Both the position numbers and the translations under genes were made by a program. A stretch of 64,000 bases of DNA from a virus (taxonomy: Duplodnaviria > Heunggongvirae > Uroviricota > Caudoviricetes), in the IMG/VR virus record IMGVR_UViG_3300044557_000151, positions 59,723 through 123,722 of that record; one strand, written 5' to 3'. Of the stretch, positions 2,934 to 63,589 are shown piece after piece (within the stretch, counting starts at the first letter, position 1; every line of letters begins with the position of its first letter). The notes beneath the pieces are model-generated. The model was given only the letters and a program-made list of their open reading frames with translations. It made no database searches and was not told where the DNA came from.

Positions 2934-2951
2934 AAAGAAGGAATTGAGGTA

Positions 2952-3535: not shown

Positions 3536-3573
3536 AATCCCCACTTCGGCCAATGAAGTGGGGATTATTTTTT
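3536..3573 (+). terminator. rho-independent terminator
   Basis: Hairpin AATCCCCACTTC-GGCCAAT-GAAGTGGGGATT followed by ATTTTTTGG. Confidence 0.6.
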
Positions 3574-3853
3574 GGCAAAACATAACACACTTAACGATAA
3601 AGCGGAACTTTATTATATCAACACTCAACAAAGCAATGCAGACGTTACGCTGCGACTATTGGATCACGCAAAGAATAAGAATTAGGTATACCATCCTAAA
3701 AGCGCCCGATGGGTACGGACGCTTTATAGGGTGAGCTACCACCCTGAACCTGAACCAACTGGTATAGATTGATGATCTGAAAATTAATTGTGAGGGAGGA
3801 TTAGTTCGATATAATATCTGGGTATAAGAATATATATATGTGGAGGGATCATA

Positions 3854-15818: not shown

Positions 15819-15836
15819 ATGAACCGCTTCTATTGT

Positions 15837-15910
15837 GTCTCCGTAGCTCAGATGGATAGAGCATAGATCTTCTAAATCTACGGTCATCGGTTCAAATCCG
15901 ATCGGAGACA
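15837..15910 (+). tRNA. tRNA-Arg(TCT)
   Basis: Manual cloverleaf: acceptor GTCTCCG/CGGAGAC, anticodon loop CTTCTAA, T-arm ATCGG-TTCAAAT-CCGAT. 74 nt. Confidence 0.8.
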
Positions 15911-15994
15911 TTGAGCTGAATTAATTATTCACCTGGTTTGACAACCCTCCAATTTAACTCAAACGTGTGCAGGACTGATCAACCTGTTACATAT

Positions 15995-16065
15995 GCGGAT
16001 ATAGTTCAATGGTAGAATTCTAGTTTTCCAAACTAGCGACGCGAGGCCGGTACTCGTTATCCGCT
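15995..16065 (+). tRNA. tRNA-Trp(CCA)-like with atypical T-loop
   Basis: Acceptor GCGGATA/TATCCGC. Anticodon stem CTAGT/ACTAG with loop TTCCAAA. The T-loop GCCGGTA lacks the conserved TTC. May be a pseudo-tRNA. Confidence 0.4.
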
Positions 16066-16096
16066 TTATATATTTATAAGAAGAGGAGGTTAAAGT

Positions 16097-16780
16097 ATGG
16101 AGATTTGGAAGCCGATGGTTGGATATGAGGGCCTTTACGAAGTGTCTAATGACGGACATGCGCGTTCTGTATCAAGAGAAATTGTGGATAGCGTTGGACG
16201 CAGACGCACCCTAAAAGGCAAGGCAGTCTCGTTCACTATAAATCCCAGAGGATATCTTACCTTTCACGCCACGAAAAACGGTAATAGAAGAACAGCATTC
16301 ATTCATGTTGAAGTGGCGAAGGCGTTTATAGAAAAACCTATTTCTGACGAGCGTTTAGATGTGAATCACAAGGACCATAATAAATTGAATTGCTCAATTG
16401 AGAATCTTGAGTGGTTGACACACGGAGATAATGTGAGAGATCTCAGCATATACCGGGCAAGGACATCAAACACATTAACGAGATTTACAAGGGTCAATGA
16501 TAAGATTGTCAAGCTACCAGATAAGACTTGCGTAGATTGTGGAAAAACCGTTGAGTTCACATCCACTCGTTGTCCTTCATGTGCGGCAAGCGCGTCAATG
16601 ACTTTCACAAACAACGTCGGAGTTATCCCGAAAAATATGCTAGTTTCCGTCCTTCGTGAGAATAATGGGAACTTTGTTAAGGCTGCTGCTGAGTTCGGAA
16701 TTACAGATAACTCCTTGAGAAAGTGGTGTAAGAAATATAATTTGCCATTTCACTCATCGGACTATAAGAAAGCATCATAA
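16097..16780 (+). CDS. HNH homing endonuclease (NUMOD4 + HNH + C-terminal HTH)
   Basis: GYEGLYEVSNDG (NUMOD4 motif), VNHKDHNKLNCSIENLEW (HNH motif) and a C-terminal helix-turn-helix. RBS AAGAGGAGG. Confidence 0.75.
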   Translation: MEIWKPMVGYEGLYEVSNDGHARSVSREIVDSVGRRRTLKGKAVSFTINPRGYLTFHATKNGNRRTAFIHVEVAKAFIEKPISDERLDVNHKDHNKLNCSIENLEWLTHGDNVRDLSIYRARTSNTLTRFTRVNDKIVKLPDKTCVDCGKTVEFTSTRCPSCAASASMTFTNNVGVIPKNMLVSVLRENNGNFVKAAAEFGITDNSLRKWCKKYNLPFHSSDYKKAS

Positions 16781-16798
16781 TGAATTGCATTCGCTTTT

Positions 16799-16882
16799 GC
16801 CGAAGTGGTGGAACTGGAAGACGCGCAGGATTTAGGCTCCTGTGTTGGGAACAACGTGTGGGTTCGAATCCCACCTTCGGCA
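16799..16882 (+). tRNA. tRNA-Leu(TAG)
   Basis: Class II tRNA with long variable arm. Acceptor GCCGAAG/CTTCGGC, anticodon stem CAGGA/TCCTG with loop TTTAGGC, T-arm GTGGG-TTCGAAT-CCCAC. Confidence 0.75.
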
Positions 16883-17120
16883 TCGCCCCTCACTTCACGG
16901 TGGTGAGAGGCGTGAATCAATACTAGTCATGCGGTGTTGGTTCCTCCTTATATATGATATTCGTGCGACCGTCCTGAACGAAGGATTTAAGTCTTATTGC
17001 TTGAATCGGGTTTGAATCCCGACAGCCGCATTCCAGCAAACGTGTATGGCCGCGTGGCGGCGACGAGCGCTGGAATTTAGGTGTGGCACCCTTAACCACA
17101 CCACTCGTTATACTGAAGTG

Positions 17121-17344
17121 GGCAAGAAGACATGTTCTTTAAAGGACGTGATGAATTGCACGTATCTGCGTCAGCAGGTACAACAGCCTTGGTAGCGAAA
17201 ACCAAACTACCAACCTGAACTCAACGTTAAGGCGCGGAACGCGCCGTGGTCAATAACCGTAACCTCTGCATTGTTAGTTTAATGCTAATGGTGTAAGTCA
17301 GCGGTGTTCCCAGAAGCTCGGTCATTTATGACCGAGTAGTTCAC
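17121..17344 (+). mobile_element. ORF-less miniature IS200/IS605 derivative (left end + right end/omega-RNA scaffold)
   Basis: 17121..17160 is nearly identical to the left end of the full IS at 54477. 17245..17344 is nearly identical to the right end at 56190..56287 and ends in the same GAGTAGTTCAC. No ORF between the ends. Confidence 0.6.
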
Positions 17345-17348
17345 GAGT

Positions 17349-17421
17349 GCAACTGTAGCTCAGCGGTGGAGCGGCTGCTCAGAAGAGTAGAGTGTCGCTG
17401 GTTCGATTCCAGCCAGTTGTA
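17349..17421 (+). other. degenerate tRNA-like element (pseudo-tRNA, Phe-like loop CAGAAGA)
   Basis: Good acceptor stem, D-arm and T-arm (GCTGG-TTCGATT-CCAGC) are present. The anticodon stem cannot pair. Begins 4 nt after the mini-IS right end. Confidence 0.35.
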
Positions 17422-17574
17422 GATCCGTGGACTATGTCTAAAATACCTATGTTCTCCTGGTGTCGGTTTGAGGAGACTAACTTTTGGCGGGATGTTCGCA
17501 CATAAGATTGCGAACTTTGTTTCGGATAGTAAAACCGTTAGTCGTGATTGCGAAGTACAAGCTTTCGCGCATAT

Positions 17575-17648
17575 GCTTTCTTAGCTCAGTTGGTTAGAGC
17601 ACCTGACTGTTAATCAGGGTGTCACAGGTTCGAGTCCTGTAGAAAGCG
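17575..17648 (+). tRNA. tRNA-Asn(GTT)
   Basis: Acceptor GCTTTCT/AGAAAGC. Anticodon stem CCTGA/TCAGG with loop CTGTTAA. T-arm ACAGG-TTCGAGT-CCTGT. Confidence 0.85.
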
Positions 17649-17933
17649 TATCTGGATAAATTAAGTTTACGACCAAAAAGCATCCAGAGAAACGCTAACG
17701 TATTGCAGCTGGACTTTAGAGCGATACGAGAGGGCAATCAGCTGTCGGACGGCAGGAAGTTGTCGTAGGTGGATTTGCAACACTTATAGAAAAAGGCTGG
17801 CATGTTCTTGCGCACGAACAAAGCTGGTTAAGATTAAAGTGTGGCGCAGTAGTCGGATAGGTGATTAGTAGTCTGGTGGTCGCAGATGAAAGATCTTACC
17901 GGACTAGGTAGTTCGACTCTACCATCCACCATT

Positions 17934-18006
17934 GGTTGTGTGGTGTTAATGGCTAACACGCCTGATTGTCTATCAGGAGCTTAGGGTTCAATTCCCTACA
18001 CGACCG
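17934..18006 (+). tRNA. tRNA-Asp(GTC)
   Basis: Acceptor GGTTGTG/CACGACC. Anticodon stem CCTGA/TCAGG with loop TTGTCTA. T-arm TAGGG-TTCAATT-CCCTA. Confidence 0.8.
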
Positions 18007-18476
18007 TCAAGCCGAAAGGTTTGAGTTCTTTGCTGTTAATATAACTACCTATCGGATTGGCTAATGACCGCCGATATTTCGGGGATGTAACGGTCTCGAC
18101 AGGATATGCTTAACTGACAAAGCATGTAGAGTGATGACTTAATCATCAACTTGCTAAATGCAAAACAAAACGATTTAGTTGCGGCCTAAGTTTAACTTAG
18201 TATAGCAACACTTACCCCAACGTATGATACCAGATACAAGACGTTGGCTAAACAGGCTGGTGTAGGATGACACTTACTTATTTTCATAAGCTTATCCGAA
18301 ATCTATTGAAAATATGCTCGTCTACTCCGATTGCCCATTTGCGGAAGACGCTAAGACTAATAAGTGAGCTAAGCATGTAGAATTGTCAGATAGAAGCATG
18401 TGTTGGAAACGGGTTCAACTCCCGTCATCTCCATATAGTATGTCGTTACACAATAACATACTAGATATAGTGCAAC

Positions 18477-18564
18477 GGAAAGTTACTCAAGTGGCTGAAG
18501 AGGCGCCCCTGCTAAGGGTGTAGGTCGAGAAATCGGCGCATGGGTTCAAACCCCATACTTTCCA
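18477..18564 (+). tRNA. tRNA-Ser(GCT)
   Basis: Class II tRNA. Acceptor GGAAAGT/ACTTTCC, anticodon loop CTGCTAA, long variable arm, T-arm ATGGG-TTCAAAC-CCCAT. Confidence 0.8.
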
Positions 18565-29311: not shown

Positions 29312-30448
29312 GTGGATACCTATCAAGCATACAAAGTCCGTATCTATCCCACTCAATTACAAGCTGATATGATTATGCAATTTATCGGAAATAGTCGATT
29401 CGTGTATAACCAAATGCTTGCCATGCAGGCTGATCGTTACAAGAACGGCGGAAGGTACGTTGGATACATGGCAATGTCCAACCTAGTCAAACCACTCAAA
29501 CAAGAGTACGCATTCCTCAAGCTGTCACCATCTCAATCGCTACAACAGGCGTGTGCGGATTTGAACGCCGCTTTCCAGAACTTCTTTGCTAAGCGCGCAG
29601 ACTATCCACGGTTCCACTCCCGAAAAGGTGCGAAGCAATCTATGCGGGTCATGCAGGCTTGTTCCATCATCGCTTCGGGAGTCAAGCTGCCAAAGCTCGG
29701 TATCATGCGTTTCCGTTATGGATATAGTCTCGACCCGTCACTTAAAATTCGGCAAGTGACCGTCTCGTACACCTCATCTCACAAGTTTTACGCCAGCATC
29801 TTAGTTAAATGCGAAAAACAAGCATTGTCTAAAACTGGTGAACAAGTGGGATTGGATATGGGCGTGGCTGACTTAGCTATCCAGAGCAATGGCAAGAAAA
29901 TTCCAACTCAGAAGCATGACGAGCTGGAACACTCTCTTCACATTTGGCAACGTAAGTTGGCTCGCCGTAGGGAGTTAGCCAAGGCGGAAATCGCTAAATC
30001 CAAGCACTATGACCACACTGAATTGACGCTTGATGACTTCTCCAATTACAACAAGGCGAAAATAATGGTTGCTAAGTTGCATGAGAAGATTGCTAACAGG
30101 CGGAAGGATTACCTACACAAGACGACAACCAAATTGGTGCGGGAATATGACCTTATCGCTATGGAAGATTTGAGGACCAAGAATATGGTCAAGAATCACC
30201 ATTTGGCGAAGTCAATTACCAATCAAGGCTGGAACATGTTTAAAACCATGCTTCAGTACAAGTGCGAGTGGTATGGGAAGACAATAGTGGTGGTAAACCC
30301 GCGGAATACCAGTCGCGTATGTTCTGATTGTGGTGTGGATAGCGGCAAGAAACCACTAGATGTGCGGGAATGGACGTGTCCAGGATGTGGTACATGGCAT
30401 GATCGTGATGTGAATGCAGCACAAAACATTTTGAAATTAGCAGTGTAA
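29312..30448 (+). CDS. tnpB: TnpB RNA-guided endonuclease
   Basis: KVRIYPTQLQ...GNSRFVYNQ. RuvC-I GLDMG, RuvC-II MEDLRTK. Zinc finger CSDCG...CPGCG. RuvC-III DRDVNAAQNIL. Confidence 0.9.
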   Translation: MDTYQAYKVRIYPTQLQADMIMQFIGNSRFVYNQMLAMQADRYKNGGRYVGYMAMSNLVKPLKQEYAFLKLSPSQSLQQACADLNAAFQNFFAKRADYPRFHSRKGAKQSMRVMQACSIIASGVKLPKLGIMRFRYGYSLDPSLKIRQVTVSYTSSHKFYASILVKCEKQALSKTGEQVGLDMGVADLAIQSNGKKIPTQKHDELEHSLHIWQRKLARRRELAKAEIAKSKHYDHTELTLDDFSNYNKAKIMVAKLHEKIANRRKDYLHKTTTKLVREYDLIAMEDLRTKNMVKNHHLAKSITNQGWNMFKTMLQYKCEWYGKTIVVVNPRNTSRVCSDCGVDSGKKPLDVREWTCPGCGTWHDRDVNAAQNILKLAV

Positions 30449-32412: not shown

Positions 32413-33603
32413 TTGGAAATCAAAGGTAAATACGGCGTTGCAAAAGTAATGACCGAGAATATTGAGCAAACCGCTCAAGAACAGTTGAAAACGTTACTGG
32501 ATCAGCCATACATGAAGGGCAACGATGTTCGAATCATGCCGGATGTTCACGCTGGTAAAGGCGCAACAATTGGCACTAGCATCAAGTTAAACAACGACTT
32601 CATTTGCCCAAATACGGTTTCGGTCGACCTGGGCTGTGGAATGCACGTATTCAAGCTTGACATCGATCATGTAGACTTTGAAAAGTTGGATCAGTTAATC
32701 AATAACGAAGTACCATCTGGTTTCAACGTTTACGAAAATCCGATTCGTAAATTCAGACAAATCAATTATACTCGCATTACTCATCTGAAAAACTACGATC
32801 ACATCTTGAACAGTATTGGAACTCTTGGTGGTGGGAACCATTTCATTGAAATCGATCAGGATACCGATGGTGTTTACTACCTGGTAATTCATTCAGGCTC
32901 ACGCAACTTGGGCGTTCAAGTTGCCAACTATTATCAACGCTTAGCAATTTCGAATCAGTCAAAGAATGTTGAGTTACGCGACGCTGTGATTGCAGCATGT
33001 AAAGAGGTTGGACAAGAGCGTCAGATTGAGGGTTTGTTGAATACGTTGAAACAAACGAATCCAATCATTCCAGACGAGTTGGCTCCTGTCAGCGGCCAAG
33101 ATGCTGAAGACTACTTATACGACGTATCGATTGCACAAGAGTTTGCAGCGTTGAATCGTTTGACGATGGCCGAAACAATTATCTACGGCATGAATTGGCA
33201 AGTTGATTCAGACTTTGATTCAATTCACAACTACATTGATATCGATAATCGAATTATTCGCAAAGGTGCTACCGATGCCTCGTTGGGGAAACAATTGGTT
33301 ATCCCATTGAATATGCGTGATGGCTCGATTATTGCAACTGGCATGGGTAACTCTGACTGGAACTACTCAGCTCCACATGGTGCAGGTCGCGTAATGTCTC
33401 GCAAGAAGGCGTTTGAAACAGTTGCCATGAACGACTTTACCAAATCGATGGAAGGTATCTACTCGACTTCTGTTGTCAAAGAAACGATTGATGAATCACC
33501 GTTCGCATACAAGCCTGCACAAGAGATTATTGATGCAATCAGTGAGAAGACTGTCCACATCGATAAGGTGATTAAACCGGTTTACAACTACAAGGCACAT
33601 TAA
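32413..33603 (+). CDS. rtcB: RtcB-family RNA 3'-phosphate ligase
   Basis: MPDVHAGKGATIG, GGGNHFIEID and APHGAGR motifs. Start uncertain: TTG at 32413 or ATG at 32449. Confidence 0.85.
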   Translation: MEIKGKYGVAKVMTENIEQTAQEQLKTLLDQPYMKGNDVRIMPDVHAGKGATIGTSIKLNNDFICPNTVSVDLGCGMHVFKLDIDHVDFEKLDQLINNEVPSGFNVYENPIRKFRQINYTRITHLKNYDHILNSIGTLGGGNHFIEIDQDTDGVYYLVIHSGSRNLGVQVANYYQRLAISNQSKNVELRDAVIAACKEVGQERQIEGLLNTLKQTNPIIPDELAPVSGQDAEDYLYDVSIAQEFAALNRLTMAETIIYGMNWQVDSDFDSIHNYIDIDNRIIRKGATDASLGKQLVIPLNMRDGSIIATGMGNSDWNYSAPHGAGRVMSRKKAFETVAMNDFTKSMEGIYSTSVVKETIDESPFAYKPAQEIIDAISEKTVHIDKVIKPVYNYKAH

Positions 33604-44450: not shown

Positions 44451-44661
44451 CTCAAGCAACACACGATATTACCTGCATCGGTTGGTCCATGGGTATGACG
44501 AATACCTCTATCGTGATGAAGCAACTGGAGAGTACAACGAACTTCCAGTTCATCAAACAACTACTTTTACTGCTGAAGAAGCAGATTTAATCGATCCAGA
44601 AAATCAATACACAAGAACGGAGGCGCGATTCGTTGTCAGAAACAACCGAAGAGACATTTGA
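44434..44661 (+). CDS. hypothetical protein
   Basis: ORF track 75 aa. Confidence 0.4.
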   Translation: MVKMINSSNTRYYLHRLVHGYDEYLYRDEATGEYNELPVHQTTTFTAEEADLIDPENQYTRTEARFVVRNNRRDI

Positions 44662-44917
44662 AGAGGCATGTCGTAGACAAACACTATACGTCATGCAGAT
44701 CGCGCGAACATATAAGTTTAACGATCCATCTAAAATAAAACAATCAGGATACAGCCCATACAACGAAGCGCTTAAGGCATTTGCAGCATACGAAAAGATC
44801 ATCGATGATTTGATGGCAGAAGTTGAACGGCTGAATGAGGTTATTGATGGAATGGTCGAGCAAATGGAGCGCGAGAACGAGTTACAAATTGAAGAAATGG
44901 AAGGAGAGGATTACTAA
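44633..44917 (+). CDS. hypothetical protein
   Basis: ORF track 94 aa. Confidence 0.4.
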   Translation: MSETTEETFEEACRRQTLYVMQIARTYKFNDPSKIKQSGYSPYNEALKAFAAYEKIIDDLMAEVERLNEVIDGMVEQMERENELQIEEMEGEDY

Positions 44918-44920
44918 CAA

Positions 44921-46054
44921 ATGGTAAAAATTACCTCGTCTGACGTCGTCTCAAGGCTTAATACTTCCCACCCCGGACAGTATGAGCTGCTGGAATATAG
45001 GAACGGGCGAGCCACTGTACTTTGTAAAAAGTGTTCACATCAATGGTCCAACGTATTGCTCGGGAATATTCTAAAAGTCACTAGAAATTGTCCAAACTGC
45101 AATAAGATCGATCGAGCAATTTCTAGAATGGAAAAGTGGAATCATCAACTCAAACAATCGGGGGAGTCATCGCTGGTTGTCGTATCGTTTAACCCAACAG
45201 AAAAAGGTGCTATGCGGGTATTATGCGAGAATTGTAATTCATACTTCAACTCTAGAACGGACTGCTTACCAACCCACTGCATCAATTGCTCTAAATACCA
45301 GAGACCTAATGTCTTTCAATTCTATCAGATGACTCGGTCCGTTGGGAACCATTACCACATTCATAACCCGGAACTGTTTACCTCAGCTAATCAGAAGGTG
45401 ACAGTGACATGCCAAGACTGTGGGTATGAGTTTACTGCAATTGGTAGATCATTGACGATAGGTAGATGTCTACGATGTTCCGGGTCGGCAAAAACAACTG
45501 AAATAGTGTCAAGAGAACTGTATGAAAAGACCGGTGGAAACATTGAGCTTCGTTCAAAGTATATCAATGCACAAACAAAGGTTCAGTTCTACTGCAATGT
45601 ATGTCATCACAGTTTTAAAAATAAGCCCTTTAATATTCTAGTTGGTGGTTCTGGATGTCCGGTATGTCATGAATCGAAAGGTGAGCGCGCAATTCGAAAT
45701 TACCTTGAGGAAAATAATATTGAATTTGAATCCCAAAAAGTATTTCCCTCATGTCGGTTAAAGCTCCCCCTTCCATTTGACTTCTTCATCAATAAATCAT
45801 TGCTTGTAGAATTTGACGGGCCTCAACACTATTCGCCGAATATGTTGATGAATAAACGCGAAGGGTTTCAGGTTCAGAAGGCACGCGACGATGCGAAAAC
45901 GTGGTGGGCACTTAAACATGACTATACGTTGGTGAGAATTAGATATGATCAGATGGAGTTAATACCACGTATTTTGAAGAATGAAATAAATAGGAGTGAA
46001 GTAAAACTTGGTAGCAAACAAAAAGTTCAAGTATCCAGATCGAGTTGCGCATGA
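44921..46054 (+). CDS. multi-zinc-ribbon protein with C-terminal Vsr/DUF559-like PD-(D/E)XK endonuclease domain
   Basis: Five or more CxxC pairs. C-terminus GERAIRNYLEENNIEFESQK...LPFDFFINKSLLVEFDGPQH...LVRIRY fits the Vsr/DUF559 pattern (FDF...iE.DG..H...vlR). Confidence 0.5.
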   Translation: MVKITSSDVVSRLNTSHPGQYELLEYRNGRATVLCKKCSHQWSNVLLGNILKVTRNCPNCNKIDRAISRMEKWNHQLKQSGESSLVVVSFNPTEKGAMRVLCENCNSYFNSRTDCLPTHCINCSKYQRPNVFQFYQMTRSVGNHYHIHNPELFTSANQKVTVTCQDCGYEFTAIGRSLTIGRCLRCSGSAKTTEIVSRELYEKTGGNIELRSKYINAQTKVQFYCNVCHHSFKNKPFNILVGGSGCPVCHESKGERAIRNYLEENNIEFESQKVFPSCRLKLPLPFDFFINKSLLVEFDGPQHYSPNMLMNKREGFQVQKARDDAKTWWALKHDYTLVRIRYDQMELIPRILKNEINRSEVKLGSKQKVQVSRSSCA

Positions 46055-46508
46055 CTTTGTAGTCAAGCGACTTGATGAAAAGGGAGTGTCTTTAGAGGCC
46101 ATCGCCGAAGAGGCTCGCCTTCAACAACTTAGCCACAATGATAAGTTAACATTTGAAGACTGCTTTGATGCTGTTCAAAAAGTCTTGTGGAAGCGAGAAA
46201 TCCTTAACAATATTATGGTCGCCTTAGAGCTAGACCGAATGGCAACGGAAGGACTGTTGGCAGAGCCGCTTCAATCAATCATTGCCAACGACAGTTCCGT
46301 GATGTCAGTAGACGAAGGGTTGGCCCTGTCTATTTCAATGCTATATGGCGAGATTGCACAAACCAACTTTTCGTACCTAGACGTTGTGAAACATGGTCTT
46401 TCGAAGAAGCTTGATAACAGTCACGAAGAAGTAAACACATTCGTCGATGACATCGTAAGCGCGCTGATTGCTTGTACTGAAGCTAAAGTCGCACACAAGT
46501 ATGAATAA
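46008..46508 (+). CDS. hypothetical protein
   Basis: ORF track 166 aa. Start uncertain. Confidence 0.4.
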   Translation: MVANKKFKYPDRVAHDFVVKRLDEKGVSLEAIAEEARLQQLSHNDKLTFEDCFDAVQKVLWKREILNNIMVALELDRMATEGLLAEPLQSIIANDSSVMSVDEGLALSISMLYGEIAQTNFSYLDVVKHGLSKKLDNSHEEVNTFVDDIVSALIACTEAKVAHKYE

Positions 46509-48818: not shown

Positions 48819-48947
48819 AAGGGAGATTTTATGAAGGATCAGATTTTTGACGCAACAAGCATTAAGGTCAATCCACTAGACGGATACGTAGTAACTGTTA
48901 AGGGAGAGCCACTACACATTTTAGGAGACGTGAAAATTATGAAACAA

Positions 48948-49415
48948 AACACGGTATATATGGCGGAATCTTGGTTTAATGATGAACAAAACGCATTACG
49001 TGAGGCCGGTATGGAGGCGATGAAGCAAAACCAAACAATTGACTGGGAAAACAGCTTCCGCCCAATTGAACATCAATACAAGGGTTGGAAGATTACAGAT
49101 CATCCCGACATGCTCAATAATTCCGAATGGCAGTTAGCGACATTTCGTTCAGACTGTCATTCTGTTGAGGCAATGGACATCACGATTGCGTTGTACGATC
49201 CGAAGATTGAGAACTCAGATCCTGGCGTTTTGTGGGAACTCGGCTATGCTTATGGCTTAAACAAACCAACATTTTTGGTGTTGCCAGATGATTGTGATAC
49301 TCCATTAAACCTAATGCCCGCGTTAGGTGCAACTCGCGTATTACATCTTGCAGACTTGGAGACTTTTGATTTTAACAACAAAGCATTTACAGTATTTACC
49401 GGGGAGGTCTACTAA
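48948..49415 (+). CDS. nucleoside 2-deoxyribosyltransferase
   Basis: YMAESWF...ENSFRPIEHQYKGWKITDHP...WELGYAYGLNKPTFLVLPDD...NLMPALG...FDFNNKAFTVFTGEVY aligns end to end with Lactobacillus NDT. ATG 48948 after GGAGACG. The alternative start at 48831 adds 39 aa. Confidence 0.8.
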   Translation, partial: NTVYMAESWFNDEQNALREAGMEAMKQNQTIDWENSFRPIEHQYKGWKITDHPDMLNNSEWQLATFRSDCHSVEAMDITIALYDPKIENSDPGVLWELGYAYGLNKPTFLVLPDDCDTPLNLMPALGATRVLHLADLETFDFNNKAFTVFTGEVY

Positions 49416-49417
49416 TT

Positions 49418-49900
49418 ATGCAACAACGAAATGTAATGTTATCAGCATCATGGTTCTCACCAGAGGAAGCCGAATTCCTCGAAAAGGTGAAAGCCTCACT
49501 TCATGCCAACGAAACGATTTCAGATTTCAGTTGGTGTTTGGATAAAGATGGACAGTGGGGAGAGACGGATGTTACTCTGCATCCTGAAGTCGCGAGTGAT
49601 TTGTTGTGGCGCTCTCGTACCTTCCTCAATGATGTAACATCTGTAAAAAACGCAGAAGTAATTGTGCTTATGATGGTTCCTGGTCACGAAGATACCGGAG
49701 CAGTTTCCGAGGCAAGTATGGCTTACGCTTGGGGTAAACCCGTAGTCATGGTCCTGCCAGACGCTGATTATGATAACAAGACCACCCCAATTAACTTAAT
49801 GCCATCCATGTTGGCTGACGTCGTAATCCCATATCGTGAACTCGCCACATATAACTTCGGTCACTTACGCAATCGTCCTTACGACGGTCCTTGCTTCTAG
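49418..49900 (+). CDS. nucleoside 2-deoxyribosyltransferase paralog
   Basis: SASWFSPEE...VSEASMAYAWGKPVVMVLPDADYDNKTTPINLMPSM preserves the NDT catalytic Glu region and the PINLM motif. Confidence 0.7.
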   Translation: MQQRNVMLSASWFSPEEAEFLEKVKASLHANETISDFSWCLDKDGQWGETDVTLHPEVASDLLWRSRTFLNDVTSVKNAEVIVLMMVPGHEDTGAVSEASMAYAWGKPVVMVLPDADYDNKTTPINLMPSMLADVVIPYRELATYNFGHLRNRPYDGPCF

Positions 49901-54575: not shown

Positions 54576-55019
54576 ATGAAAGACACTAATAGACTTACGT
54601 ATGGTAGAACTTCTGTCTACAATCTAAATTACCACATCATCTGGGGAACTAAATACCGTAACCGGGTTCTGAAAGGAAATGTTGAGGTTACGCTCAAGCA
54701 AATTATGTATGAAATCGCAGAGCAATATGGTTTTAGCATCGACCACATGGAAATTGGTCAGGATGACCATATTCACTTGCTGGTGAGTGCACCGCCAAAA
54801 CTATCAGTTACCAATATTGTGCGATGGCTAAAAGGCATTTCAGCGCGCCAGCTATTCGTCGCGTGTCCGGAGCTACAGCGAAGTTACTGGAAACATGCAG
54901 GACGCCACTTATGGTCGCCCAGTTATTACGTAGAAAGTATTGGCACAACTAATCAGAATGCAGTCGCTAAGTACATTGATGACCAAAGGTTGAAGGAGGT
55001 GAAGATTAATGACAATTAA
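54576..55019 (+). CDS. tnpA: IS200-like Y1 (HUH) transposase TnpA
   Basis: YHIIWGTKYR and HIHLLVSAPP (HuH) motifs plus a downstream Tyr. ATG 54576 (track frame from 54504). Confidence 0.85.
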   Translation: MKDTNRLTYGRTSVYNLNYHIIWGTKYRNRVLKGNVEVTLKQIMYEIAEQYGFSIDHMEIGQDDHIHLLVSAPPKLSVTNIVRWLKGISARQLFVACPELQRSYWKHAGRHLWSPSYYVESIGTTNQNAVAKYIDDQRLKEVKINDN

Positions 55020-56148
55020 AGCTTATAAACTTAGGATCTACCCAAATGAGGCTCAAAAGCTTCAAATGGAAAAGAACTTTGGTATGTGTCGATTTGTATG
55101 GAACCAGCTTCTCGCTATGCAGAATGCGCGCTACAAGAACGGTGGTGACTACGTCAACGAGTTTGGCATGAATTACCTATTTAAGCCCCTGAAAAAAGAA
55201 TACCAATGGCTTAAAGAAGCAGACTCAACCAGCTTAATAGCTGTGAGCCACAATCTGCACTTAGCATTTAAAAACTTTTTCAAAAAGCATGAAGGGTATC
55301 CGAAGTTTAAGACTAAGCGGTTCACCCGCCCTGCATATCGTTCTAACGCAGTTAACCACAATATCGTTCTTATGGACGAGCAACATATTCGGCTGCCAAA
55401 ACTTGGATCAATAGCATTTCGATCTGGACAGTTACCAAGGGGTAAAGTTAAAACTGCAACAGTTACTAGAAGTCCCGCTGGTAAATACTATGTACTTGTG
55501 ACTACGGAAGTCGAAATAGAGAAATGGAACCCAACAGGCGCTAGTGTCGGCTTGGATATGGGAGTCGCTGACCTTGTAATCACTAGTGATGGTATGAAGT
55601 TTGCGACCAAACGGTTTGATAAAGCTCTTGCCAAAAAGAAACACTACTGGGAGAAACGATTGGCCCGTAGGCGCGCCTTAGCTCAAAAAGAAATTGCCTG
55701 GGATAAACACCTCAAGGTAGAATCGCCACGTCAGTTATCTGACTTCAAGAATTACATGAAGGCTAAAGAAATGGTGGCGAAATACAGTGAAAAAGTGTCT
55801 AATCAACGTCACGATTACCTTCAAAAGATCAGTACTGAGCTCGTTTCAGAATATGATGTGATTAAATTAGAAGACCTGAAAACCAAGGGCCTGATGAAGA
55901 ATCACAAACTGTCACGAGCAATTGCAAATCAGTCGTGGCGTGAATTACGTCTGATGTTGGAATACAAAGCAGCTTGGTATGGTAAGAGTATCATTGCCGT
56001 GTCTCCGTATAAGACCTCACAACGTTGTTCAGTATGTGGCTACGATGATGGCAAACATGAGCTAGATATCCGCGAATGGACTTGCCCACAATGCCATACT
56101 CATCACGATCGTGACATAAATGCCGCAAAGAACATTCTAGTCGCATAA
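55009..56148 (+). CDS. tnpB: TnpB RNA-guided endonuclease
   Basis: KLRIYPNEAQ...FGMCRFVWNQ. RuvC-I GLDMG, RuvC-II LEDLKTK. Zinc finger CSVCG...CPQCH. RuvC-III DRDINAAKNIL. Confidence 0.9.
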   Translation: MTIKAYKLRIYPNEAQKLQMEKNFGMCRFVWNQLLAMQNARYKNGGDYVNEFGMNYLFKPLKKEYQWLKEADSTSLIAVSHNLHLAFKNFFKKHEGYPKFKTKRFTRPAYRSNAVNHNIVLMDEQHIRLPKLGSIAFRSGQLPRGKVKTATVTRSPAGKYYVLVTTEVEIEKWNPTGASVGLDMGVADLVITSDGMKFATKRFDKALAKKKHYWEKRLARRRALAQKEIAWDKHLKVESPRQLSDFKNYMKAKEMVAKYSEKVSNQRHDYLQKISTELVSEYDVIKLEDLKTKGLMKNHKLSRAIANQSWRELRLMLEYKAAWYGKSIIAVSPYKTSQRCSVCGYDDGKHELDIREWTCPQCHTHHDRDINAAKNILVA

Positions 56149-60566: not shown

Positions 60567-61331
60567 ATGAACAACTTGGAAAACACTAACACAACTAAAT
60601 TTACTGGTACTTATTTTCAATGGATCAAGCATCAATTAACCGGATGGGACACTTTCCCATGGGCATTGTGGGGATTCGGTATCGGATTTGAATTAGCCCT
60701 GCTGCTCACCAATAAGATTACACCATTAGCTATCATTTCATTCATCGGCGTATTCTTCGGTATGTGGTGTACAGTCGCAATGTCGTCAGGCGGTACTGAC
60801 GCTAACGGTAATCGAGTAATCTCTCACTCGATTAATGGATTGTTGGGCGCAATCAGTGTAATCGCCTATGTCTATGTTAACTGGACCGCAGGGCACTGGT
60901 TCAGTGTCCTGGATCAATTTGCCTACTTCTTCTTAATCGATTTTGGTTTGATGATTAACTGGCGCACATGGGGACATGGCGAAAACGGCGGCAAGATGAA
61001 TGAACTCTCCAAAAAAGGCTGGGCAATCGTTACTGCTATTATCCTGATTGGTTGGTTTGCCTTCTACCATCTTGGCGTAGTATTAAACGACAGTAATCCA
61101 ATTTGGGATTCCCTCACGTTCGCTATTGGCGCTACGGCAAGCTGGTTGTGCTTCAAGCGTTACACATCGACATACACATTATGGATTTGTTCAAATATTG
61201 TAAATTTGGTTCTTTGGTTTACTGCCCTGCAAGCAGGGTATAGTCAATCAGCACTCGTTATGCTTGTTATGAACGTATTCTATATGGCTACTGCGATCTA
61301 CGGTAAGTTTGTGTGGAAGGTGGAAAAGTAG
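60567..61331 (+). CDS. pnuC: PnuC-family nucleoside/NMN transporter
   Basis: 254 aa, about 7 TM helices, Trp-rich. NWTAGHWFSVLDQF and the loop layout are typical of PnuC. Confidence 0.6.
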   Translation: MNNLENTNTTKFTGTYFQWIKHQLTGWDTFPWALWGFGIGFELALLLTNKITPLAIISFIGVFFGMWCTVAMSSGGTDANGNRVISHSINGLLGAISVIAYVYVNWTAGHWFSVLDQFAYFFLIDFGLMINWRTWGHGENGGKMNELSKKGWAIVTAIILIGWFAFYHLGVVLNDSNPIWDSLTFAIGATASWLCFKRYTSTYTLWICSNIVNLVLWFTALQAGYSQSALVMLVMNVFYMATAIYGKFVWKVEK

Positions 61332-61334
61332 TCC

Positions 61335-62780
61335 TTGCCAGTATCATTAACATTATCTCAAGTGCAACAACGTATCGACGAAAAGTTTAAGGAAAACATT
61401 GAGGTACATGATGACTTCGTAGGGTGGACACACCCTTGTACAATGAGTTGTCGAAAGTGCGGAACAAGCTGGTTTATGAATCCTAGAAATCTGTGTGACA
61501 TGCGACACGGATGTGGGTGCGACTCGTGTAACAAGAAGACCTTTCAACCTCACAATCTGAAAGCTGCCGAACAGGTACGGGACGAGATTCTTGATGCAAC
61601 CGACGGAACAACGCAATTGCAGGTAAACGCCTACACCCGTTCTCAAGAGAAGTGCGACTTTGTTTGCTTAATCTGTGGCAATACCTGGTGCGCCGTTCCG
61701 TCGGTGCTTTTATGGGAGTCTAAAAACAGAAGAACAACTGGTTGCTCAAAGTGTTCACGTAGGTTGCAGGCGCAAAGACAGCAGCGAACAATCGAAGATG
61801 TAAGAGTGTATGTCGCGGATTGTGCACCGGAAATCACCGTTCTTGCGTATGACCCAATTAAGCACCGTGTCGATATGAAGTGCGATAAGTGCGCGTATGA
61901 GTTTACTACAGGATTCGACTCTGATAAAGAAAAGGGGAAGACGCGCTTCCGCTGTCCTAGATGTACTCCTTGCGAATCATCTGGAGAACGGTTCGTTCGA
62001 CGTGTTCTTGACTACAATCAAATCGAGTATCAACAAGAATACTCGTACTTCAACACGATTGAGAAGACCTGGCAGCGATTTGATTTCTTGCTTCCAGTTC
62101 AAAAGCTAGTAATTGAAATCAATGGTGATCAACACACCAACGAATCGAATTCCTTCTACAAGACTCGCATGGTATACCTCGATAAAGTCAAACGTCAATG
62201 GGCGCTAGATCAAGGGTTGCATGTACTGGATATAGATTATCCAACGGAGTCCATGATTTCACAATTAGTTGGTGAGCTCGGTTTACTCGCTGTGCCTCCG
62301 TTCGATTACAAAGACTCGCGAGAGTCTGAATATCAGGACGTTATTGCGTATCTAACGTCGGGGCATAATCTTATCGAAACACAGGCCAAATTCAACATGG
62401 GTCCCAAGGTAGTGAATAGATACATTAAGATGCGCGGATACGCAAATTATTGGGATTTATACCACACTGAACGGATGAAAAGATTGGGACTAACAAATGA
62501 TCTCATCATCGATTGGCTTAAGCATAACCACTTCTCGCATATTGAAGAAGAGATCGGGATTACTAAGAAGTATGTAATTAACCATATACTTAATAATCCA
62601 GACTACCCATACACCAACCTAACCGACATCAAAGATGAAGCAATTCGGTCAGATGAATTTACAAAGTATCGCAAGACTCACTCCAAGCGAGCAACTAGTA
62701 AATACTTTATGACTGATGCAGCCCACATTATTAAATTAATTGGGGCTGAAAAATGGGATAGAAAAGTTGAGGTGTCGTAA
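61335..62780 (+). CDS. multi-zinc-ribbon protein with Vsr/DUF559-like PD-(D/E)XK endonuclease domain (paralog of 44921)
   Basis: Many CxxC pairs. GERFVRRVLDYNQIEY...FDFLLPVQKLVIEINGDQH...LHVLDIDY matches the nuclease domain of the 44921 protein. C-terminal HTH-like tail. Confidence 0.5.
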   Translation: MPVSLTLSQVQQRIDEKFKENIEVHDDFVGWTHPCTMSCRKCGTSWFMNPRNLCDMRHGCGCDSCNKKTFQPHNLKAAEQVRDEILDATDGTTQLQVNAYTRSQEKCDFVCLICGNTWCAVPSVLLWESKNRRTTGCSKCSRRLQAQRQQRTIEDVRVYVADCAPEITVLAYDPIKHRVDMKCDKCAYEFTTGFDSDKEKGKTRFRCPRCTPCESSGERFVRRVLDYNQIEYQQEYSYFNTIEKTWQRFDFLLPVQKLVIEINGDQHTNESNSFYKTRMVYLDKVKRQWALDQGLHVLDIDYPTESMISQLVGELGLLAVPPFDYKDSRESEYQDVIAYLTSGHNLIETQAKFNMGPKVVNRYIKMRGYANYWDLYHTERMKRLGLTNDLIIDWLKHNHFSHIEEEIGITKKYVINHILNNPDYPYTNLTDIKDEAIRSDEFTKYRKTHSKRATSKYFMTDAAHIIKLIGAEKWDRKVEVS

Positions 62781-62857
62781 GACCCTTATCGACAATGAGA
62801 CCTCGCGTCCGAGTGGGTGGAATGCCCATACATAATCAATGAAAGTGACGGTACAAT

Positions 62858-63589
62858 ATCATTCTGTACATTTTAGGATCAATTGGCGCTGGCAAGACAA
62901 GCCTAACCGATTTATTAGCAAAAGACCTACAAACTACCGCATACTATGAAGACATTAGTGGAAATGGCATGATTGGGAGTATGCTTGAAAAATTCTACGA
63001 ATCAGGGATTGACTCAAGAAAGCGCACGGGTGCGATGCTCCAGATCGCCTTCTTAACATTCCGTTACCAGCAATTAAAACGAGCAATTGTTGAACGTAAC
63101 GCTATTCTGGATTCTAGCCTCGAATCCGATTTTGTAATGGCAAAACAGTTGCATGACAACGGCGAAATTGATGATGTGGACTATAACATCTATACTACCT
63201 TATCACAAGAAATGCAGGCTAACGTGAATGGTATGCCATGGAGCGGATATCCAGATCTCGCCATCTACTTAAAGATTGATCCGGAGAAGGAAATCGAGGA
63301 GATTCAAGGACGTGGCCGCGAAATGGAAGATATCCGCAAAGACCCTGAATTGGTTGATTACTATCATCGCGTCAACAAAGCTTATCGCGAATGGTCTAAA
63401 GGTTATACTCGTGGAATTATGCTGACGATTGATCGTGATAAATACGATTTCGTTAATAATCTCGACGATCGCAACACTGTCCTAAATCAAATCGAACATA
63501 AACTTGTTGATCTCGGCAAGTTGTCCCCCGAAGAGTTTGACGCGATTCGTGCTCGCCGTGAACCATTAACTCGCGGTTTGCCGTTCTAA
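62858..63589 (+). CDS. deoxynucleoside kinase (dAK/dGK family), probable ATC/ATT start
   Basis: P-loop ILGSIGAGKTSL at 62870..62905 lies in frame upstream of the first ATG (62969), with no ATG/GTG/TTG after the in-frame stop at 62846. The C-terminus IQGRGREMEDIRKDPELVDYY...DRDKYDFVNNLDDRN aligns with Lactobacillus dAK/dGK. Confidence 0.75.
   Translation: MILYILGSIGAGKTSLTDLLAKDLQTTAYYEDISGNGMIGSMLEKFYESGIDSRKRTGAMLQIAFLTFRYQQLKRAIVERNAILDSSLESDFVMAKQLHDNGEIDDVDYNIYTTLSQEMQANVNGMPWSGYPDLAIYLKIDPEKEIEEIQGRGREMEDIRKDPELVDYYHRVNKAYREWSKGYTRGIMLTIDRDKYDFVNNLDDRNTVLNQIEHKLVDLGKLSPEEFDAIRARREPLTRGLPF

What the first reader, a model, noticed from the sequence alone, without database searches (positions are those of the whole stretch)
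44921..46054. Two paralogous multi-zinc-ribbon + Vsr/DUF559-like endonucleases (44921 and 61335): candidate unclassified homing endonuclease family
Both proteins have an N-terminal half packed with CxxC pairs and a C-terminal GER...(F/Y)DF...(V/I)E(F/I)(D/N)G(P/D)QH...(L/V)(R/D)I(R/D)Y domain matching the Vsr/DUF559 PD-(D/E)XK endonuclease fold. The second copy sits between pnuC and the dNK gene. Together with two HNH endonucleases (16097, 25040) this gives the region four free-standing endonuclease genes, typical of intron-less homing. The zinc-ribbon + DUF559 architecture is not one of the named homing families.
Basis: partly seen in the sequence, partly recalled or inferred. Interest (0 to 1): 0.5.

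Follow-up and report, generated by a model that had tools for sequence, protein, structure and literature searches.

The report
Zinc-ribbon Vsr-type phage homing endonucleases
Two genes in this Lactobacillus-type phage encode selfish DNA-cutting enzymes (strings of zinc-ribbon DNA-binding modules fused to a Vsr-like nuclease) of a very large, poorly annotated branch of the known EDxHD homing-endonuclease family, so they are real and probably active but not a new kind of enzyme.

Summary
ORF A (44921-46054, 377 aa) has four CxxC...CxxC zinc-ribbon units and ORF B (61335-62780, 481 aa) has three. Each is followed by a ~110-aa nuclease domain, and the two nuclease domains are paralogous (BLASTP E=1e-8).

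An AlphaFold model of A's nuclease domain (pLDDT 91) matches, in order, I-Bth0305I (3r3p, the EDxHD prototype), Vsr (1cw0) and a DUF559-like protein (3hrl). All EDxHD residues are intact:
- A: E255, D287, D299, H303, D323
- B: E218, D250, N263, H267, D283

The claim that this is an unnamed family is not supported. Vsr-like homing endonucleases are the named EDxHD family. The exact architecture (3-5 CapR/DUF723/DUF4379-like domains plus an EDxHD/Vsr-like nuclease) was described in 2025 as a large unrecognised outgroup of it. GenBank already labels a staphylococcal phage member "group I intron-associated VSR homing endonuclease". A profile of the domain finds about 50,000 cluster representatives.

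Two points are new here. B carries an extra C-terminal tandem helix-turn-helix array. All four members of its subfamily sit directly 3' of pnuC, in two pnuC clades only about 24% identical, while related pnuC loci carry an HNH or GIY-YIG endonuclease, or none.

Both genes look free-standing. Cleavage and homing are inferred, not shown.

The parts
44921..46054 (+). ORF A: free-standing homing-endonuclease gene, four zinc-ribbon modules plus an EDxHD/Vsr-like nuclease (377 aa)
   Evidence: ORF found. A Shine-Dalgarno-like AAGGAG lies ~11 nt upstream, inside the preceding ORF. PHROG 559 at 7.6e-60. Nuclease profile 9.8e-45.
44921..45670 (+). A, residues 1-250: four tandem ~62-aa CxxC...CxxC zinc-ribbon (CapR/DUF723/DUF4379-type) modules, the predicted DNA-binding array
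   Evidence: Cysteine positions. Pfam DUF4379 at 3.2e-9 with 3 stretches. Repeat alignment. Role as modular homing-endonuclease DNA-binding domains from PMC10448857 and PMC12350094.
45653..46003 (+). A, residues ~245-361: Vsr-like nuclease domain with E255, D287, E297, D299, H303, D323, K326
   Evidence: Alignment A1 invariant columns. AF2 model pLDDT 91. Foldseek hits 3r3p, 1cw0, 3hrl. hhalign.
61335..62780 (+). ORF B: free-standing homing-endonuclease gene, three zinc-ribbon modules plus an EDxHD/Vsr-like nuclease plus a C-terminal helix-turn-helix array (481 aa, TTG start 3 nt after the pnuC stop)
   Evidence: ORF found. Full-length homologue P0023 supports the start. AAGGTGG Shine-Dalgarno-like sequence lies inside the pnuC 3' end. 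Nuclease profile 1.3e-33.
61335..61976 (+). B, residues 1-214: three zinc-ribbon modules
   Evidence: Cysteine positions. DUF723 at 5.7e-4. Repeat alignment.
61953..62279 (+). B, residues ~207-315: Vsr-like nuclease domain with E218, D250, E261, N263, H267, D283, K286
   Evidence: Alignment A1. Profile match to residues 207-315.
62280..62777 (+). B, residues ~316-481: conserved all-helical C-terminal region, predicted tandem helix-turn-helix DNA-binding array
   Evidence: 53-56% identical among the four subfamily members. AF2 pLDDT 86, 12 short helices. Best folds are AraC/LuxR-type double-HTH domains, probability 0.94-0.97 but E~0.1. P0023 carries a precomputed HTH_28 hit.
60567..61331 (+). 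pnuC (NMN transporter): the gene to whose 3' end the B subfamily is always attached. It is a candidate target or co-converted gene.
   Evidence: Pfam NMN_transporter at 2e-24. The same neighbour is seen in L003/L004, L005 and L022/L023.
62852..63589 (+). dNK (deoxynucleoside kinase), the 3' neighbour of B. It is complete including the P-loop but has no canonical start codon.
   Evidence: Pfam dNK profile positions 3-202 of 203 at 1.4e-28 when read from 62852. Reading frames.
46008..46508 (+). PgpA-like gene, the 3' neighbour of A. Its start overlaps the last 47 nt of A.
   Evidence: Pfam PgpA at 6.5e-15. Homologues align from residue 4.

Best explanation
A and B are two diverged, free-standing homing-endonuclease genes. 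They belong to the zinc-ribbon (CapR/DUF723/DUF4379-like) branch of the EDxHD/Vsr-like family.

Inferred mechanism, by analogy with I-Bth0305I and Vsr: the tandem zinc-ribbon modules (plus, in B, a C-terminal tandem helix-turn-helix array) bind a long DNA site in a related phage genome that lacks the gene. The Vsr-like domain then cuts. The Asp of the FDF motif holds Mg2+, helped by the Glu/Asp(Asn) of the (V/I)E(F/I)(D/N)G motif and by the Asp of the downstream D-x-x-K element (RDDAK in A). The His of the QH motif acts as general base. Cutting probably occurs as a dimer and gives a staggered double-strand break.

During mixed infection, recombinational repair from the endonuclease-carrying genome would copy the gene and its flanks into the cut genome. 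For B, the site is in or next to the 3' end of pnuC. For A, it is near the junction between p94 (the 94-aa ORF at 44633-44917) and the PgpA-like gene.

Shown here: the domain architecture, the fold, the intact catalytic set, homology to EDxHD enzymes, patchy distribution at the pnuC flank, and presence/absence of a family member between near-identical phages. Inferred: DNA cleavage, the target sites, dimerisation and actual homing.
For: - Fold: the AF2 model of A residues 245-377 has pLDDT 91. Its top Foldseek PDB hits are the I-Bth0305I catalytic domain 3r3p (probability 1.0, TM 0.73 on the target), Vsr-DNA 1cw0 (TM 0.65 on the query) and the DUF559-like 3hrl.
- Catalytic set: E, D, (D/N), H and D are conserved or invariant in 21 family members, and all are present in A and B.
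- Homology to EDxHD: hhalign of the family profile gives 90% (E=1.6e-6) against I-Bth0305I and 96% (E=2.4e-9) against the Hef-like F-LimIII. hmmsearch of the profile hits F-LimIII at 1.3e-7. F-LimIII hits 3r3p at 4.9e-4.
- Same architecture inside a mobile intron: the Terranova terL ORF has three zinc repeats plus this nuclease (profile 1.3e-36) and is annotated 'group I intron-associated VSR homing endonuclease'. The ~1.08-kb segment holding that ORF is missing from phage Twillingate, whose flanks are ~90% (5' side) and 99.5% (3' side) identical.
- Literature: the same architecture is called an outgroup of EDxHD/Vsr homing endonucleases (PMC12350094). CapR/DUF723-type zinc fingers are modular DNA-binding domains of phage homing endonucleases (PMC10448857).
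- B locus: all four subfamily members lie 1-92 nt downstream of pnuC, with four different downstream genes.
- B locus, incongruent divergence: window versus clade-2 endonucleases are 38-44% identical while their PnuC proteins are ~24% identical. L003 versus L023 endonucleases are 45% identical while their PnuC proteins are 80% identical.
- B locus, alternative occupants: pnuC alleles in both clades lack the gene (ATCCB, L012-L015, L027, L032). Others carry an HNH plus zinc-ribbon endonuclease 2 nt after pnuC (L009-L011) or a GIY-YIG ORF ~230 nt downstream, after a small ORF (ENFP1).
- Tight packing with Shine-Dalgarno-like sequences inside the upstream gene is typical of free-standing phage endonuclease genes.
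- Neither protein matches any PADLOC defence model.
Against: - No cleavage or homing assay exists for any member of the zinc-ribbon branch.
- No close relative of this phage was found: there is no megablast hit, and the exact proteins occur only on one Logan contig and one JGI contig. An empty site at nucleotide resolution therefore cannot be shown for either locus.
- For A, the only comparative evidence is one distant phage contig (L027, PgpA 55% identical) with pnuC directly followed by PgpA.
- The strict B-pnuC linkage could also reflect a domesticated function tied to pnuC.
- Foldseek E-values are modest (2.5e-3), and the HMMER profile did not reach 3r3p by sequence.
- The His aligns one gap away from I-Bth0305I H213 in hhalign.
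Confidence: 0.8

Rival explanations
1. Domesticated nuclease or DNA-binding protein. B, and perhaps A, descends from a homing endonuclease but now serves the phage, for example as a regulator or partner of the pnuC/NAD-salvage module, or as an exclusion nuclease against co-infecting phages or satellites. It would no longer home.
For: B-subfamily genes sit next to pnuC in four of four contexts, in two pnuC clades. The C-terminal helix-turn-helix region is the best-conserved part of the protein, at 53-56% identity. There are published precedents of homing-endonuclease domains co-opted in phage-satellite conflicts (CapR, Odn; PMC10448857).
Against: The full catalytic set is retained in all four members. 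The gene is absent from many pnuC loci, including a clade-2 allele (L032) and clade-1 alleles. At the same spot other phages carry unrelated endonuclease types (HNH, GIY-YIG), which fits a selfish-element hot spot rather than a required partner. Zinc-ribbon number varies from 1 to 3 within the subfamily. No PADLOC hit.
Confidence: 0.12
2. Intron-encoded rather than free-standing. A and/or B lie inside an undetected group I or group II intron that interrupts a host gene.
For: Other family members are intron-encoded (Terranova terL; group II introns in PMC12350094). Rfam also failed to detect the annotated Terranova introns, so the negative Rfam result for the window has little power.
Against: The flanking genes are different, complete genes. 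PnuC aligns to the C-terminus of its homologues and stops 3 nt before B. dNK is complete from the P-loop. PgpA aligns from residue 4. There is no split reading frame and almost no non-coding sequence 5' of either ORF.
Confidence: 0.04
3. A DNA-repair or restriction-type Vsr/DUF559 enzyme with a housekeeping role, such as mismatch nicking or host-DNA degradation, and not a mobile element.
For: The fold and catalytic residues are shared with Vsr. Some sources name relatives 'very-short-patch-repair endonuclease' or 'restriction enzyme'.
Against: Vsr is a single-domain enzyme. Here the nuclease is fused to 3-4 zinc-ribbon modules, which are typical of phage homing endonucleases. The closest structure is the homing enzyme, not Vsr. 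Neither protein reaches the Pfam Vsr or DUF559 thresholds. There are two diverged copies in one genome, with patchy distribution.
Confidence: 0.04

Closest known systems
[quoted passage not shown]
   Same: Identical architecture: 3-5 modules of ~60 aa of zinc-ribbon type followed by a ~100-aa Vsr-like nuclease. They are widespread and mostly unannotated. A fits this exactly (four modules), and B fits in its first 315 residues.
   Different: Those examples are intron-encoded, whereas A and B are free-standing. B has an additional ~165-aa C-terminal tandem helix-turn-helix region that is not mentioned there. No direct sequence comparison with that paper's proteins was possible here.
I-Bth0305I (Bacillus phage 0305phi8-36 recA intron; PDB 3R3P), prototype of the EDxHD family
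   Same: Best structural match of the nuclease domain. Shares the E-D-x-H-D catalytic set, with x = N in B exactly as N208 in I-Bth0305I. hhalign probability 90%. It is a two-part enzyme, with a DNA-binding region plus a C-terminal nuclease.
   Different: Its DNA-binding region consists of two NUMOD2/helix-turn-helix motifs, not zinc ribbons. It is intron-encoded. Sequence identity is only ~20%. The spacing between the His and the last Asp is longer in A and B.
Hef and Hef-like free-standing endonucleases of T4-related and ViI-like phages (for example F-LimIII of Dickeya phage LIMEstone1)
   Same: They are free-standing, lie between conserved phage genes, and have the same Vsr-like core (hhalign 96%). 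Taylor et al. placed Hef in the EDxHD family. According to the Edgell et al. 2010 review, Hef of phage U5 cleaves nrdB (PMC2988022).
   Different: The N-terminal region consists of YGV-type repeats, not CxxC ribbons. Pairwise BLASTP with A or B is not significant. One metagenomic protein, P0020, combines both repeat types.
Staphylococcus phage Terranova gp079, annotated 'group I intron-associated VSR homing endonuclease'
   Same: Three zinc-ribbon repeats plus the same nuclease. It matches B residues 1-302 (E=2e-11) and the nuclease profile at 1.3e-36. It is absent from the near-identical phage Twillingate.
   Different: It lies inside a terL intron, has no C-terminal helix-turn-helix array, and is ~25% identical.
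T5orf172/GIY-YIG homing endonucleases with CapR/DUF723 zinc-finger arrays (Vibrio phage ICP1 and others; PMC10448857)
   Same: The same repeated zinc-finger DNA-binding modules, the same modular gain and loss of repeats, and the same location at boundaries between conserved phage genes.
   Different: A different catalytic domain (GIY-YIG superfamily rather than Vsr-like).
E. coli Vsr and DUF559 proteins
   Same: The fold and the metal-binding and general-base residues.
   Different: They are single-domain proteins with a repair or unknown role and have no zinc-ribbon array. Vsr's intradomain zinc site is not evident in A or B. Pfam models for them are not matched at threshold.

Membership tests
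EDxHD (Vsr-like) homing endonucleases | Nuclease domain with the Vsr-type alpha/beta fold | tested here: met
   AF2 model pLDDT 91. Foldseek top hits are 3r3p, 1cw0 and 3hrl.
EDxHD (Vsr-like) homing endonucleases | Composite catalytic motif E...D...x...H...D (I-Bth0305I E170, D196, N208, H213, D222) | tested here: met
   A has E255, D287, D299, H303, D323. B has E218, D250, N263, H267, D283. These columns are invariant or at least 90% conserved in 21 relatives. Register confirmed against I-Bth0305I and F-LimIII.
EDxHD (Vsr-like) homing endonucleases | Detectable sequence homology to established members | tested here: met
   hhalign 90% (E=1.6e-6) to I-Bth0305I and 96% (E=2.4e-9) to the Hef-like F-LimIII. 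hmmsearch 1.3e-7 to F-LimIII. Plain phmmer/hmmsearch against PDB did not reach 3r3p, so this is a distant branch.
EDxHD (Vsr-like) homing endonucleases | Selfish-element context: in an intron or intein, or free-standing with presence/absence polymorphism | tested here: met
   B locus: pnuC flanks with and without the gene, or with other endonuclease types. Family level: Terranova versus Twillingate. For A's own locus the result is inconclusive, with only the distant L027 comparison.
EDxHD (Vsr-like) homing endonucleases | Site-specific double-strand cleavage and homing | not testable with these tools
   Needs enzyme assays and phage crosses.
CapR-like-repeat + EDxHD/Vsr outgroup (PMC12350094) | Three to five ~60-aa CapR/DUF4379/DUF723-like domains N-terminal to the nuclease | tested here: met
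   A has four units and B has three. Homologues carry PF14311, PF05265 and PF21817 hits.
CapR-like-repeat + EDxHD/Vsr outgroup (PMC12350094) | Nuclease domain at the C-terminus | tested here: met
   Met for A. B departs from this by having a further ~165-aa helical domain after the nuclease.
HNH endonucleases (the label used by PHROG 559 and many RefSeq records) | H-N-H beta-beta-alpha-metal motif | tested here: not met
   No HNH Pfam hit in A or B at E<=1. The fold is Vsr-like. The label is an annotation error.
Vsr mismatch-repair endonuclease (PF03852) / DUF559 (PF04480) | Match to the curated family model | tested here: not met
   Neither model is hit by A or B. Among 21 nuclease domains, 10 give only sub-threshold DUF559 hits, the best at 0.0033.
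Anti-phage defence nucleases (PADLOC) | Match to a defence-system component model | tested here: not met
   No hits for A or B.

The most novel reading that the evidence does not exclude
The B subfamily (zinc ribbons, Vsr-like nuclease, tandem helix-turn-helix array) may be a pnuC-dedicated lineage that has jumped between two pnuC clades only ~24% identical. If so, it would mobilise pnuC, an NAD-salvage transporter gene, as cargo among Lactobacillaceae phages: a two-gene 'endonuclease plus auxiliary metabolic gene' cassette. Alternatively, its highly conserved helix-turn-helix array recognises a pnuC-linked DNA element, and the protein doubles as a regulator.
Probability: 0.15. Interest if true: 0.55.

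Novelty: new member of a known kind. Interest (0 to 1): 0.33.

Why it matters
These genes are further examples of a huge family: about 50,000 cluster representatives at E<=1e-3. No Pfam or NCBIfam model covers its nuclease domain, and PHROGs and RefSeq routinely mislabel it 'HNH endonuclease'. Recognising the family correctly improves phage annotation and marks likely recombination boundaries.

No member of the zinc-ribbon branch has been characterised biochemically. Its modular zinc-ribbon arrays could be of interest for programmable DNA recognition.

The pnuC 3' flank in Lactobacillaceae phages is occupied by Vsr-type, HNH-type or GIY-YIG-type endonuclease genes, or by none. This is a compact natural system for studying competition and turnover of homing endonucleases at one site.

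Tried and rejected
- Megablast of the A region against 50,697 phage records found nothing.
- Scans with the phage's own PgpA and PnuC peptides found no close relative of the window phage in IMG/VR, and a scan with the PgpA peptides found none in JGI metagenome contigs. A nucleotide-level empty site therefore could not be defined.
- Exact-sequence look-up of A found only one 11-kb Logan contig of the same phage. P0022, which is B with a later start, is not on record.
- phmmer of A and B, and hmmsearch of the nuclease profile, against PDB sequences did not reach 3r3p or Vsr. The best hit was the DUF559-like 3hrl at E=0.036. Structure and profile-profile comparison were needed.
- BLASTP of A and B against the Hef-like F-LimIII was not significant.
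- The L003 ORF upstream of PgpA is not a homologue of the window's p94, so L003 is not an empty A site.
- PgpA homologues P0178 and P0188 turned out to be bacterial chromosomal genes and are uninformative for the A locus.
- Rfam found no intron in the window. It also missed the annotated Terranova introns, so this negative result is weak.
- NCBIfam and PADLOC gave nothing relevant.
- The Sandegren 2005 Hef paper is not held in the library.
- A full-text search for 'VSR homing endonuclease' found no paper.
Full report
**What is there**

The window carries two intact + strand ORFs at the stated places. ORF A is 44921-46054 (377 aa, ATG) and ORF B is 61335-62780 (481 aa, TTG).

A has four CxxC...CxxC pairs spaced about 60 residues apart, and B has three. 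The seven units align in register as one ~62-75-aa module. Pfam recognises them as DUF4379 treble-clef zinc fingers in A (3.2e-9, three stretches), with weaker CapR and HypA-like hits. In B it finds DUF723, just under the cut-off.

After the last ribbon, both proteins have the motif (S/K)GE(R)...FDF...(V/I)E(F/I)(D/N)G.QH...D..K...(R/D)I.Y. Over this region A and B are 26% identical across 145 aa (E=1e-8). Both hit the same PHROG families: phrog_559, 9084, 7140, 4538 and 681. A profile of the nuclease domain finds exactly these two copies in the window.

**Fold and catalytic residues**

A database search returned 21 relatives of A, none closer than 36% identical. All are built from a variable number of the same zinc-ribbon units plus the same C-terminal domain.

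In an alignment of 21 C-terminal domains, the invariant columns (A numbering) are S252, F288, E297, G300, H303, D323 and K326. E251, K253, G254, E255 and D287 are at least 90% conserved. B keeps all of them: E218, D250, E261, N263, H267, D283, K286.

AlphaFold2 on this alignment gave a confident model (pLDDT 91, pTM 0.81). Foldseek against the PDB ranked these hits first:
- the catalytic domain of the homing endonuclease I-Bth0305I (3r3p; probability 1.0, TM 0.73 on the target)
- Vsr bound to DNA (1cw0; TM 0.65 on the query)
- the DUF559-like protein 3hrl

Sequence profiles alone gave only weak hits to the same superfamily (3hrl at 0.036; DUF2726, DUF5889, DUF559, RAP).

**Which family**

Vsr-like homing endonucleases are a named family, EDxHD. 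It is defined by I-Bth0305I residues E170, D196, N208, H213 and D222. Taylor et al. extended it to the free-standing Hef-type endonucleases of T4-related phages (PMC3239194). LIMEstone phages carry several Hef-like genes (PMC3296691).

The family profile built here aligns with the following:
- the I-Bth0305I nuclease domain at hhalign probability 90% (E=1.6e-6). This sequence was reconstructed from the 3r3p alignment, with the two crystallisation mutations reverted.
- the Hef-like F-LimIII at 96% (E=2.4e-9)
- F-LimIII again by hmmsearch, at 1.3e-7. F-LimIII in turn hits 3r3p at 4.9e-4.

One metagenomic protein, P0020, combines Hef-type YGV repeats, zinc-ribbon repeats and this nuclease.

The exact architecture has been described. 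[quoted passage not shown] Barth et al. showed that CapR/DUF723-type zinc fingers are repeated, shuffled DNA-binding modules of phage homing endonucleases with another nuclease domain (PMC10448857).

In GenBank, Staphylococcus phage Terranova gp079 lies inside a terL intron and is annotated 'group I intron-associated VSR homing endonuclease'. It has three such repeats plus this nuclease and scores 1.3e-36 against the profile.

The claim that the architecture is not one of the named homing families is therefore not supported.
- Pfam and NCBIfam have no model for the nuclease domain.
- PHROG 559 and many RefSeq records call the family 'HNH endonuclease', although there is no HNH motif.
- The family is very large: 50,688 cluster representatives at E<=1e-3, and 26,131 at E<=1e-10, among 1.84 billion.

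**Free-standing or intron-borne**

Both ORFs are packed between complete, unrelated genes.
- A starts 3 nt after the stop of a 94-aa ORF (p94, 44633-44917), with an AAGGAG inside that ORF. Its last 47 nt overlap the start of a PgpA-like gene, which aligns to homologues from residue 4.
- B starts 3 nt after the pnuC stop, with an AAGGTGG inside pnuC. PnuC aligns to the C-terminus of its homologues. The downstream dNK is complete from its P-loop.

Rfam finds no intron in the window. That negative result is weak, because Rfam also misses the annotated Terranova introns. The gene arrangement is the stronger argument for free-standing genes.

Family level:
- Terranova and Twillingate are 97-99% identical across most of terL and its flanks.
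- The ~1.08-kb segment holding the endonuclease ORF (L008 positions 2856-3936) is replaced by 54 nt in Twillingate; the stretch just 5' of it is ~90% identical and the 3' flank 99.5% identical.

B locus:
- B has three relatives sharing its nuclease and its C-terminal region: P0023 (38% identity, full length), P0024 (44%) and P0025 (41%).
- All three lie directly downstream of a pnuC gene, 1-92 nt after it. Their downstream neighbours all differ: glutaredoxin, an AntA/Bro protein, and an unknown 375-aa protein, against dNK in the window.
- Their PnuC proteins form a clade 80-89% identical to each other but only ~24% identical to the window's PnuC.
- The window's PnuC belongs to another clade, 47-67% identical to it: Levilactobacillus phages ATCCB and ENFP1, IMG/VR loci L009-L015, and L027.
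- In that clade, no Vsr-type endonuclease is present within the sequenced flanks (up to about 4-5 kb, less where a contig ends).
- Endonuclease and PnuC divergence are incongruent. Window versus L003 endonucleases are 44% identical with PnuC at 24%. L003 versus L023 endonucleases are 45% identical with PnuC at 80%.
- A clade-2 pnuC allele without any endonuclease also exists (L032, PnuC 70% identical to that of L003).
- At the same spot, L009-L011 carry a different endonuclease 2 nt after pnuC. It combines NUMOD4, HNH, NUMOD1 and two DUF723 zinc ribbons, and the ribbons are 29% identical to B's.
- ENFP1 carries a GIY-YIG ORF about 230 nt downstream of pnuC, after a small hypothetical ORF.
- L012 has dNK and pnuC abutted, then a TnpB gene. 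L027 has dNK...Ndt-pnuC-PgpA with only a terminator/promoter spacer between pnuC and PgpA.

The pnuC 3' flank is thus a hot spot for homing-endonuclease genes with patchy occupancy. According to its title, Sandegren et al. (2005; not held in the library) described a comparable situation, with Hef and SegH genes replacing mobE and mobC at the same positions in T4-related phages.

A locus:
- No close relative of this phage was found.
- The only evidence is the distant L027 neighbourhood, which lacks an endonuclease 5' of PgpA. Polymorphism at A's own site remains untested.

**B's extra domain**

Residues ~316-481 of B are the best-conserved part of its subfamily, at 53-56% identity. They fold into twelve short helices (pLDDT 86). 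The best structural matches are double helix-turn-helix DNA-binding domains of the AraC and LuxR/NarL types. Probabilities are 0.94-0.97, but E is ~0.1 and TM ~0.45, so the assignment is moderate. P0023 has a precomputed HTH_28 hit.

B therefore has DNA-binding modules on both sides of the nuclease. Within the subfamily the number of zinc ribbons varies from one to three.

**Mechanism**

By analogy with I-Bth0305I, the enzyme would act as follows. I-Bth0305I is a homodimer with a ~60-bp footprint. It cuts with Mg2+ and leaves two-base 5' overhangs next to the insertion site (PMC3239194).

The zinc-ribbon array, plus the helix-turn-helix array in B, would anchor the enzyme on a long site in an endonuclease-less genome. 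The Vsr-like domain would cut using D287/E297/D299/D323 for metal binding and H303 as base (D250/E261/N263/D283 and H267 in B). Recombinational repair during co-infection would then copy the gene and its flanks. These steps are inferred; no member of the zinc-ribbon branch has been assayed.

The main rival is domestication, suggested by the strict pnuC linkage and the conserved helix-turn-helix array. It is disfavoured by the intact catalytic set, by the many pnuC loci without the gene, and by unrelated endonuclease types at the same spot. There are no PADLOC defence hits.

**Context**

The window is from a large phage with a PolIII-alpha (DnaE) replicase. Its best phage match for that protein is only ~37% identical (Clostridioides and Bacillus phages). 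Its PnuC and PgpA are closest to Lactobacillaceae phage and host genes, which suggests a Lactobacillaceae host.

The window also holds two NUMOD4+HNH endonuclease genes, two TnpB genes, a tRNA cluster and a tmRNA.

**Verdict**

This is a real feature. A is a new member of a known and recently described kind. B is a modest architectural variant with an interesting, previously unreported pnuC linkage.

Noticed in passing
window 18081-18436 (+), with tRNAs at 15836-18564: The phage carries a full-length tmRNA gene (Rfam 112.9 bits; ARAGORN tag peptide AKQNDLVAA) inside a cluster of about six or seven tRNA genes. One of them has an odd two-base anticodon call at 17348-17422. The NUMOD4+HNH ORF at 16097-16780 sits between two of the tRNAs.
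   Followed up: partly
window 62839-62969: The dNK P-loop (ILYILGSIGAGKTS) lies in frame upstream of the first ATG/GTG/TTG codon (62969). There is no canonical start codon after the preceding stop. Either a rare ATC/ATT/CTG start (~62858-62866) is used, or a +1 shift from the ATG at 62839 (MKVT|YNIIL...) is needed. The L012 homologue starts at a TTG right before the P-loop. This could be a sequencing error, a pseudogene, or recoding next to the endonuclease gene.
   Followed up: partly
window 29312-30448 and 55009-56148 (+): There are two TnpB (IS605 OrfB / Cas12f-like TNB) genes, 48% identical to each other, with no TnpA seen. TnpB genes also flank pnuC in IMG/VR loci L012 (4890-6278) and L032 (2607-3800).
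   Followed up: partly
L009:4759-5922 (also L010, L011); L007:6026-6883: In other Lactobacillaceae phage contigs, different endonucleases lie 3' of pnuC. In L009-L011 a protein combining NUMOD4, HNH, NUMOD1 and two DUF723 zinc ribbons starts 2 nt after the pnuC stop. In phage ENFP1 a GIY-YIG protein with a repeated C-terminal motif starts about 230 nt after pnuC, beyond a small hypothetical ORF. Together with the Vsr-type genes, this makes three nuclease families at or near one flank.
   Followed up: yes
L003:5926-6013 and L005:1864-1955: In the two single-ribbon B homologues, an ~90-nt spacer after pnuC holds a terminator-like hairpin followed by a T run, and a strong Shine-Dalgarno sequence. 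This suggests that these endonuclease genes have their own expression signals. B and P0023 instead start 1-3 nt after pnuC.
   Followed up: no
PHROG 559; RefSeq records such as NC_029058, NC_049856, NC_048087: The family is widely annotated as 'HNH endonuclease', and occasionally as 'restriction enzyme' or 'very-short-patch-repair endonuclease'. Yet it has no HNH motif, and no Pfam or NCBIfam model covers its nuclease domain.
   Followed up: yes
L018/L019:5001-6101 (contigs of 597 and 737 kb): P0003, the full-length relative with the highest query coverage of A (four repeats, 28% identical), lies on very large contigs next to two LAGLIDADG ORFs, a 1330-aa glycosyltransferase and a collagen-like gene. 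These contigs may belong to a giant virus or a megaphage, so the family reaches well beyond Firmicute phages.
   Followed up: no
window 46008-46508, 48831-49900, 60567-61331, 62852-63589, 32413-33603: The phage carries a scattered set of salvage and repair genes: a PgpA-like gene (50-55% identical to Lactobacillaceae chromosomal PgpA), two nucleoside 2-deoxyribosyltransferases, PnuC, dNK and RtcB. In contig L027 the same dNK/Ndt/PnuC/PgpA genes form one compact cluster free of endonuclease genes.
   Followed up: partly
L027:6181-6912: A Cas6-like ORF (Pfam Cas_Cas6_C, precomputed) lies in a 70-kb phage-like contig, just downstream of the pnuC-PgpA cluster.
   Followed up: no
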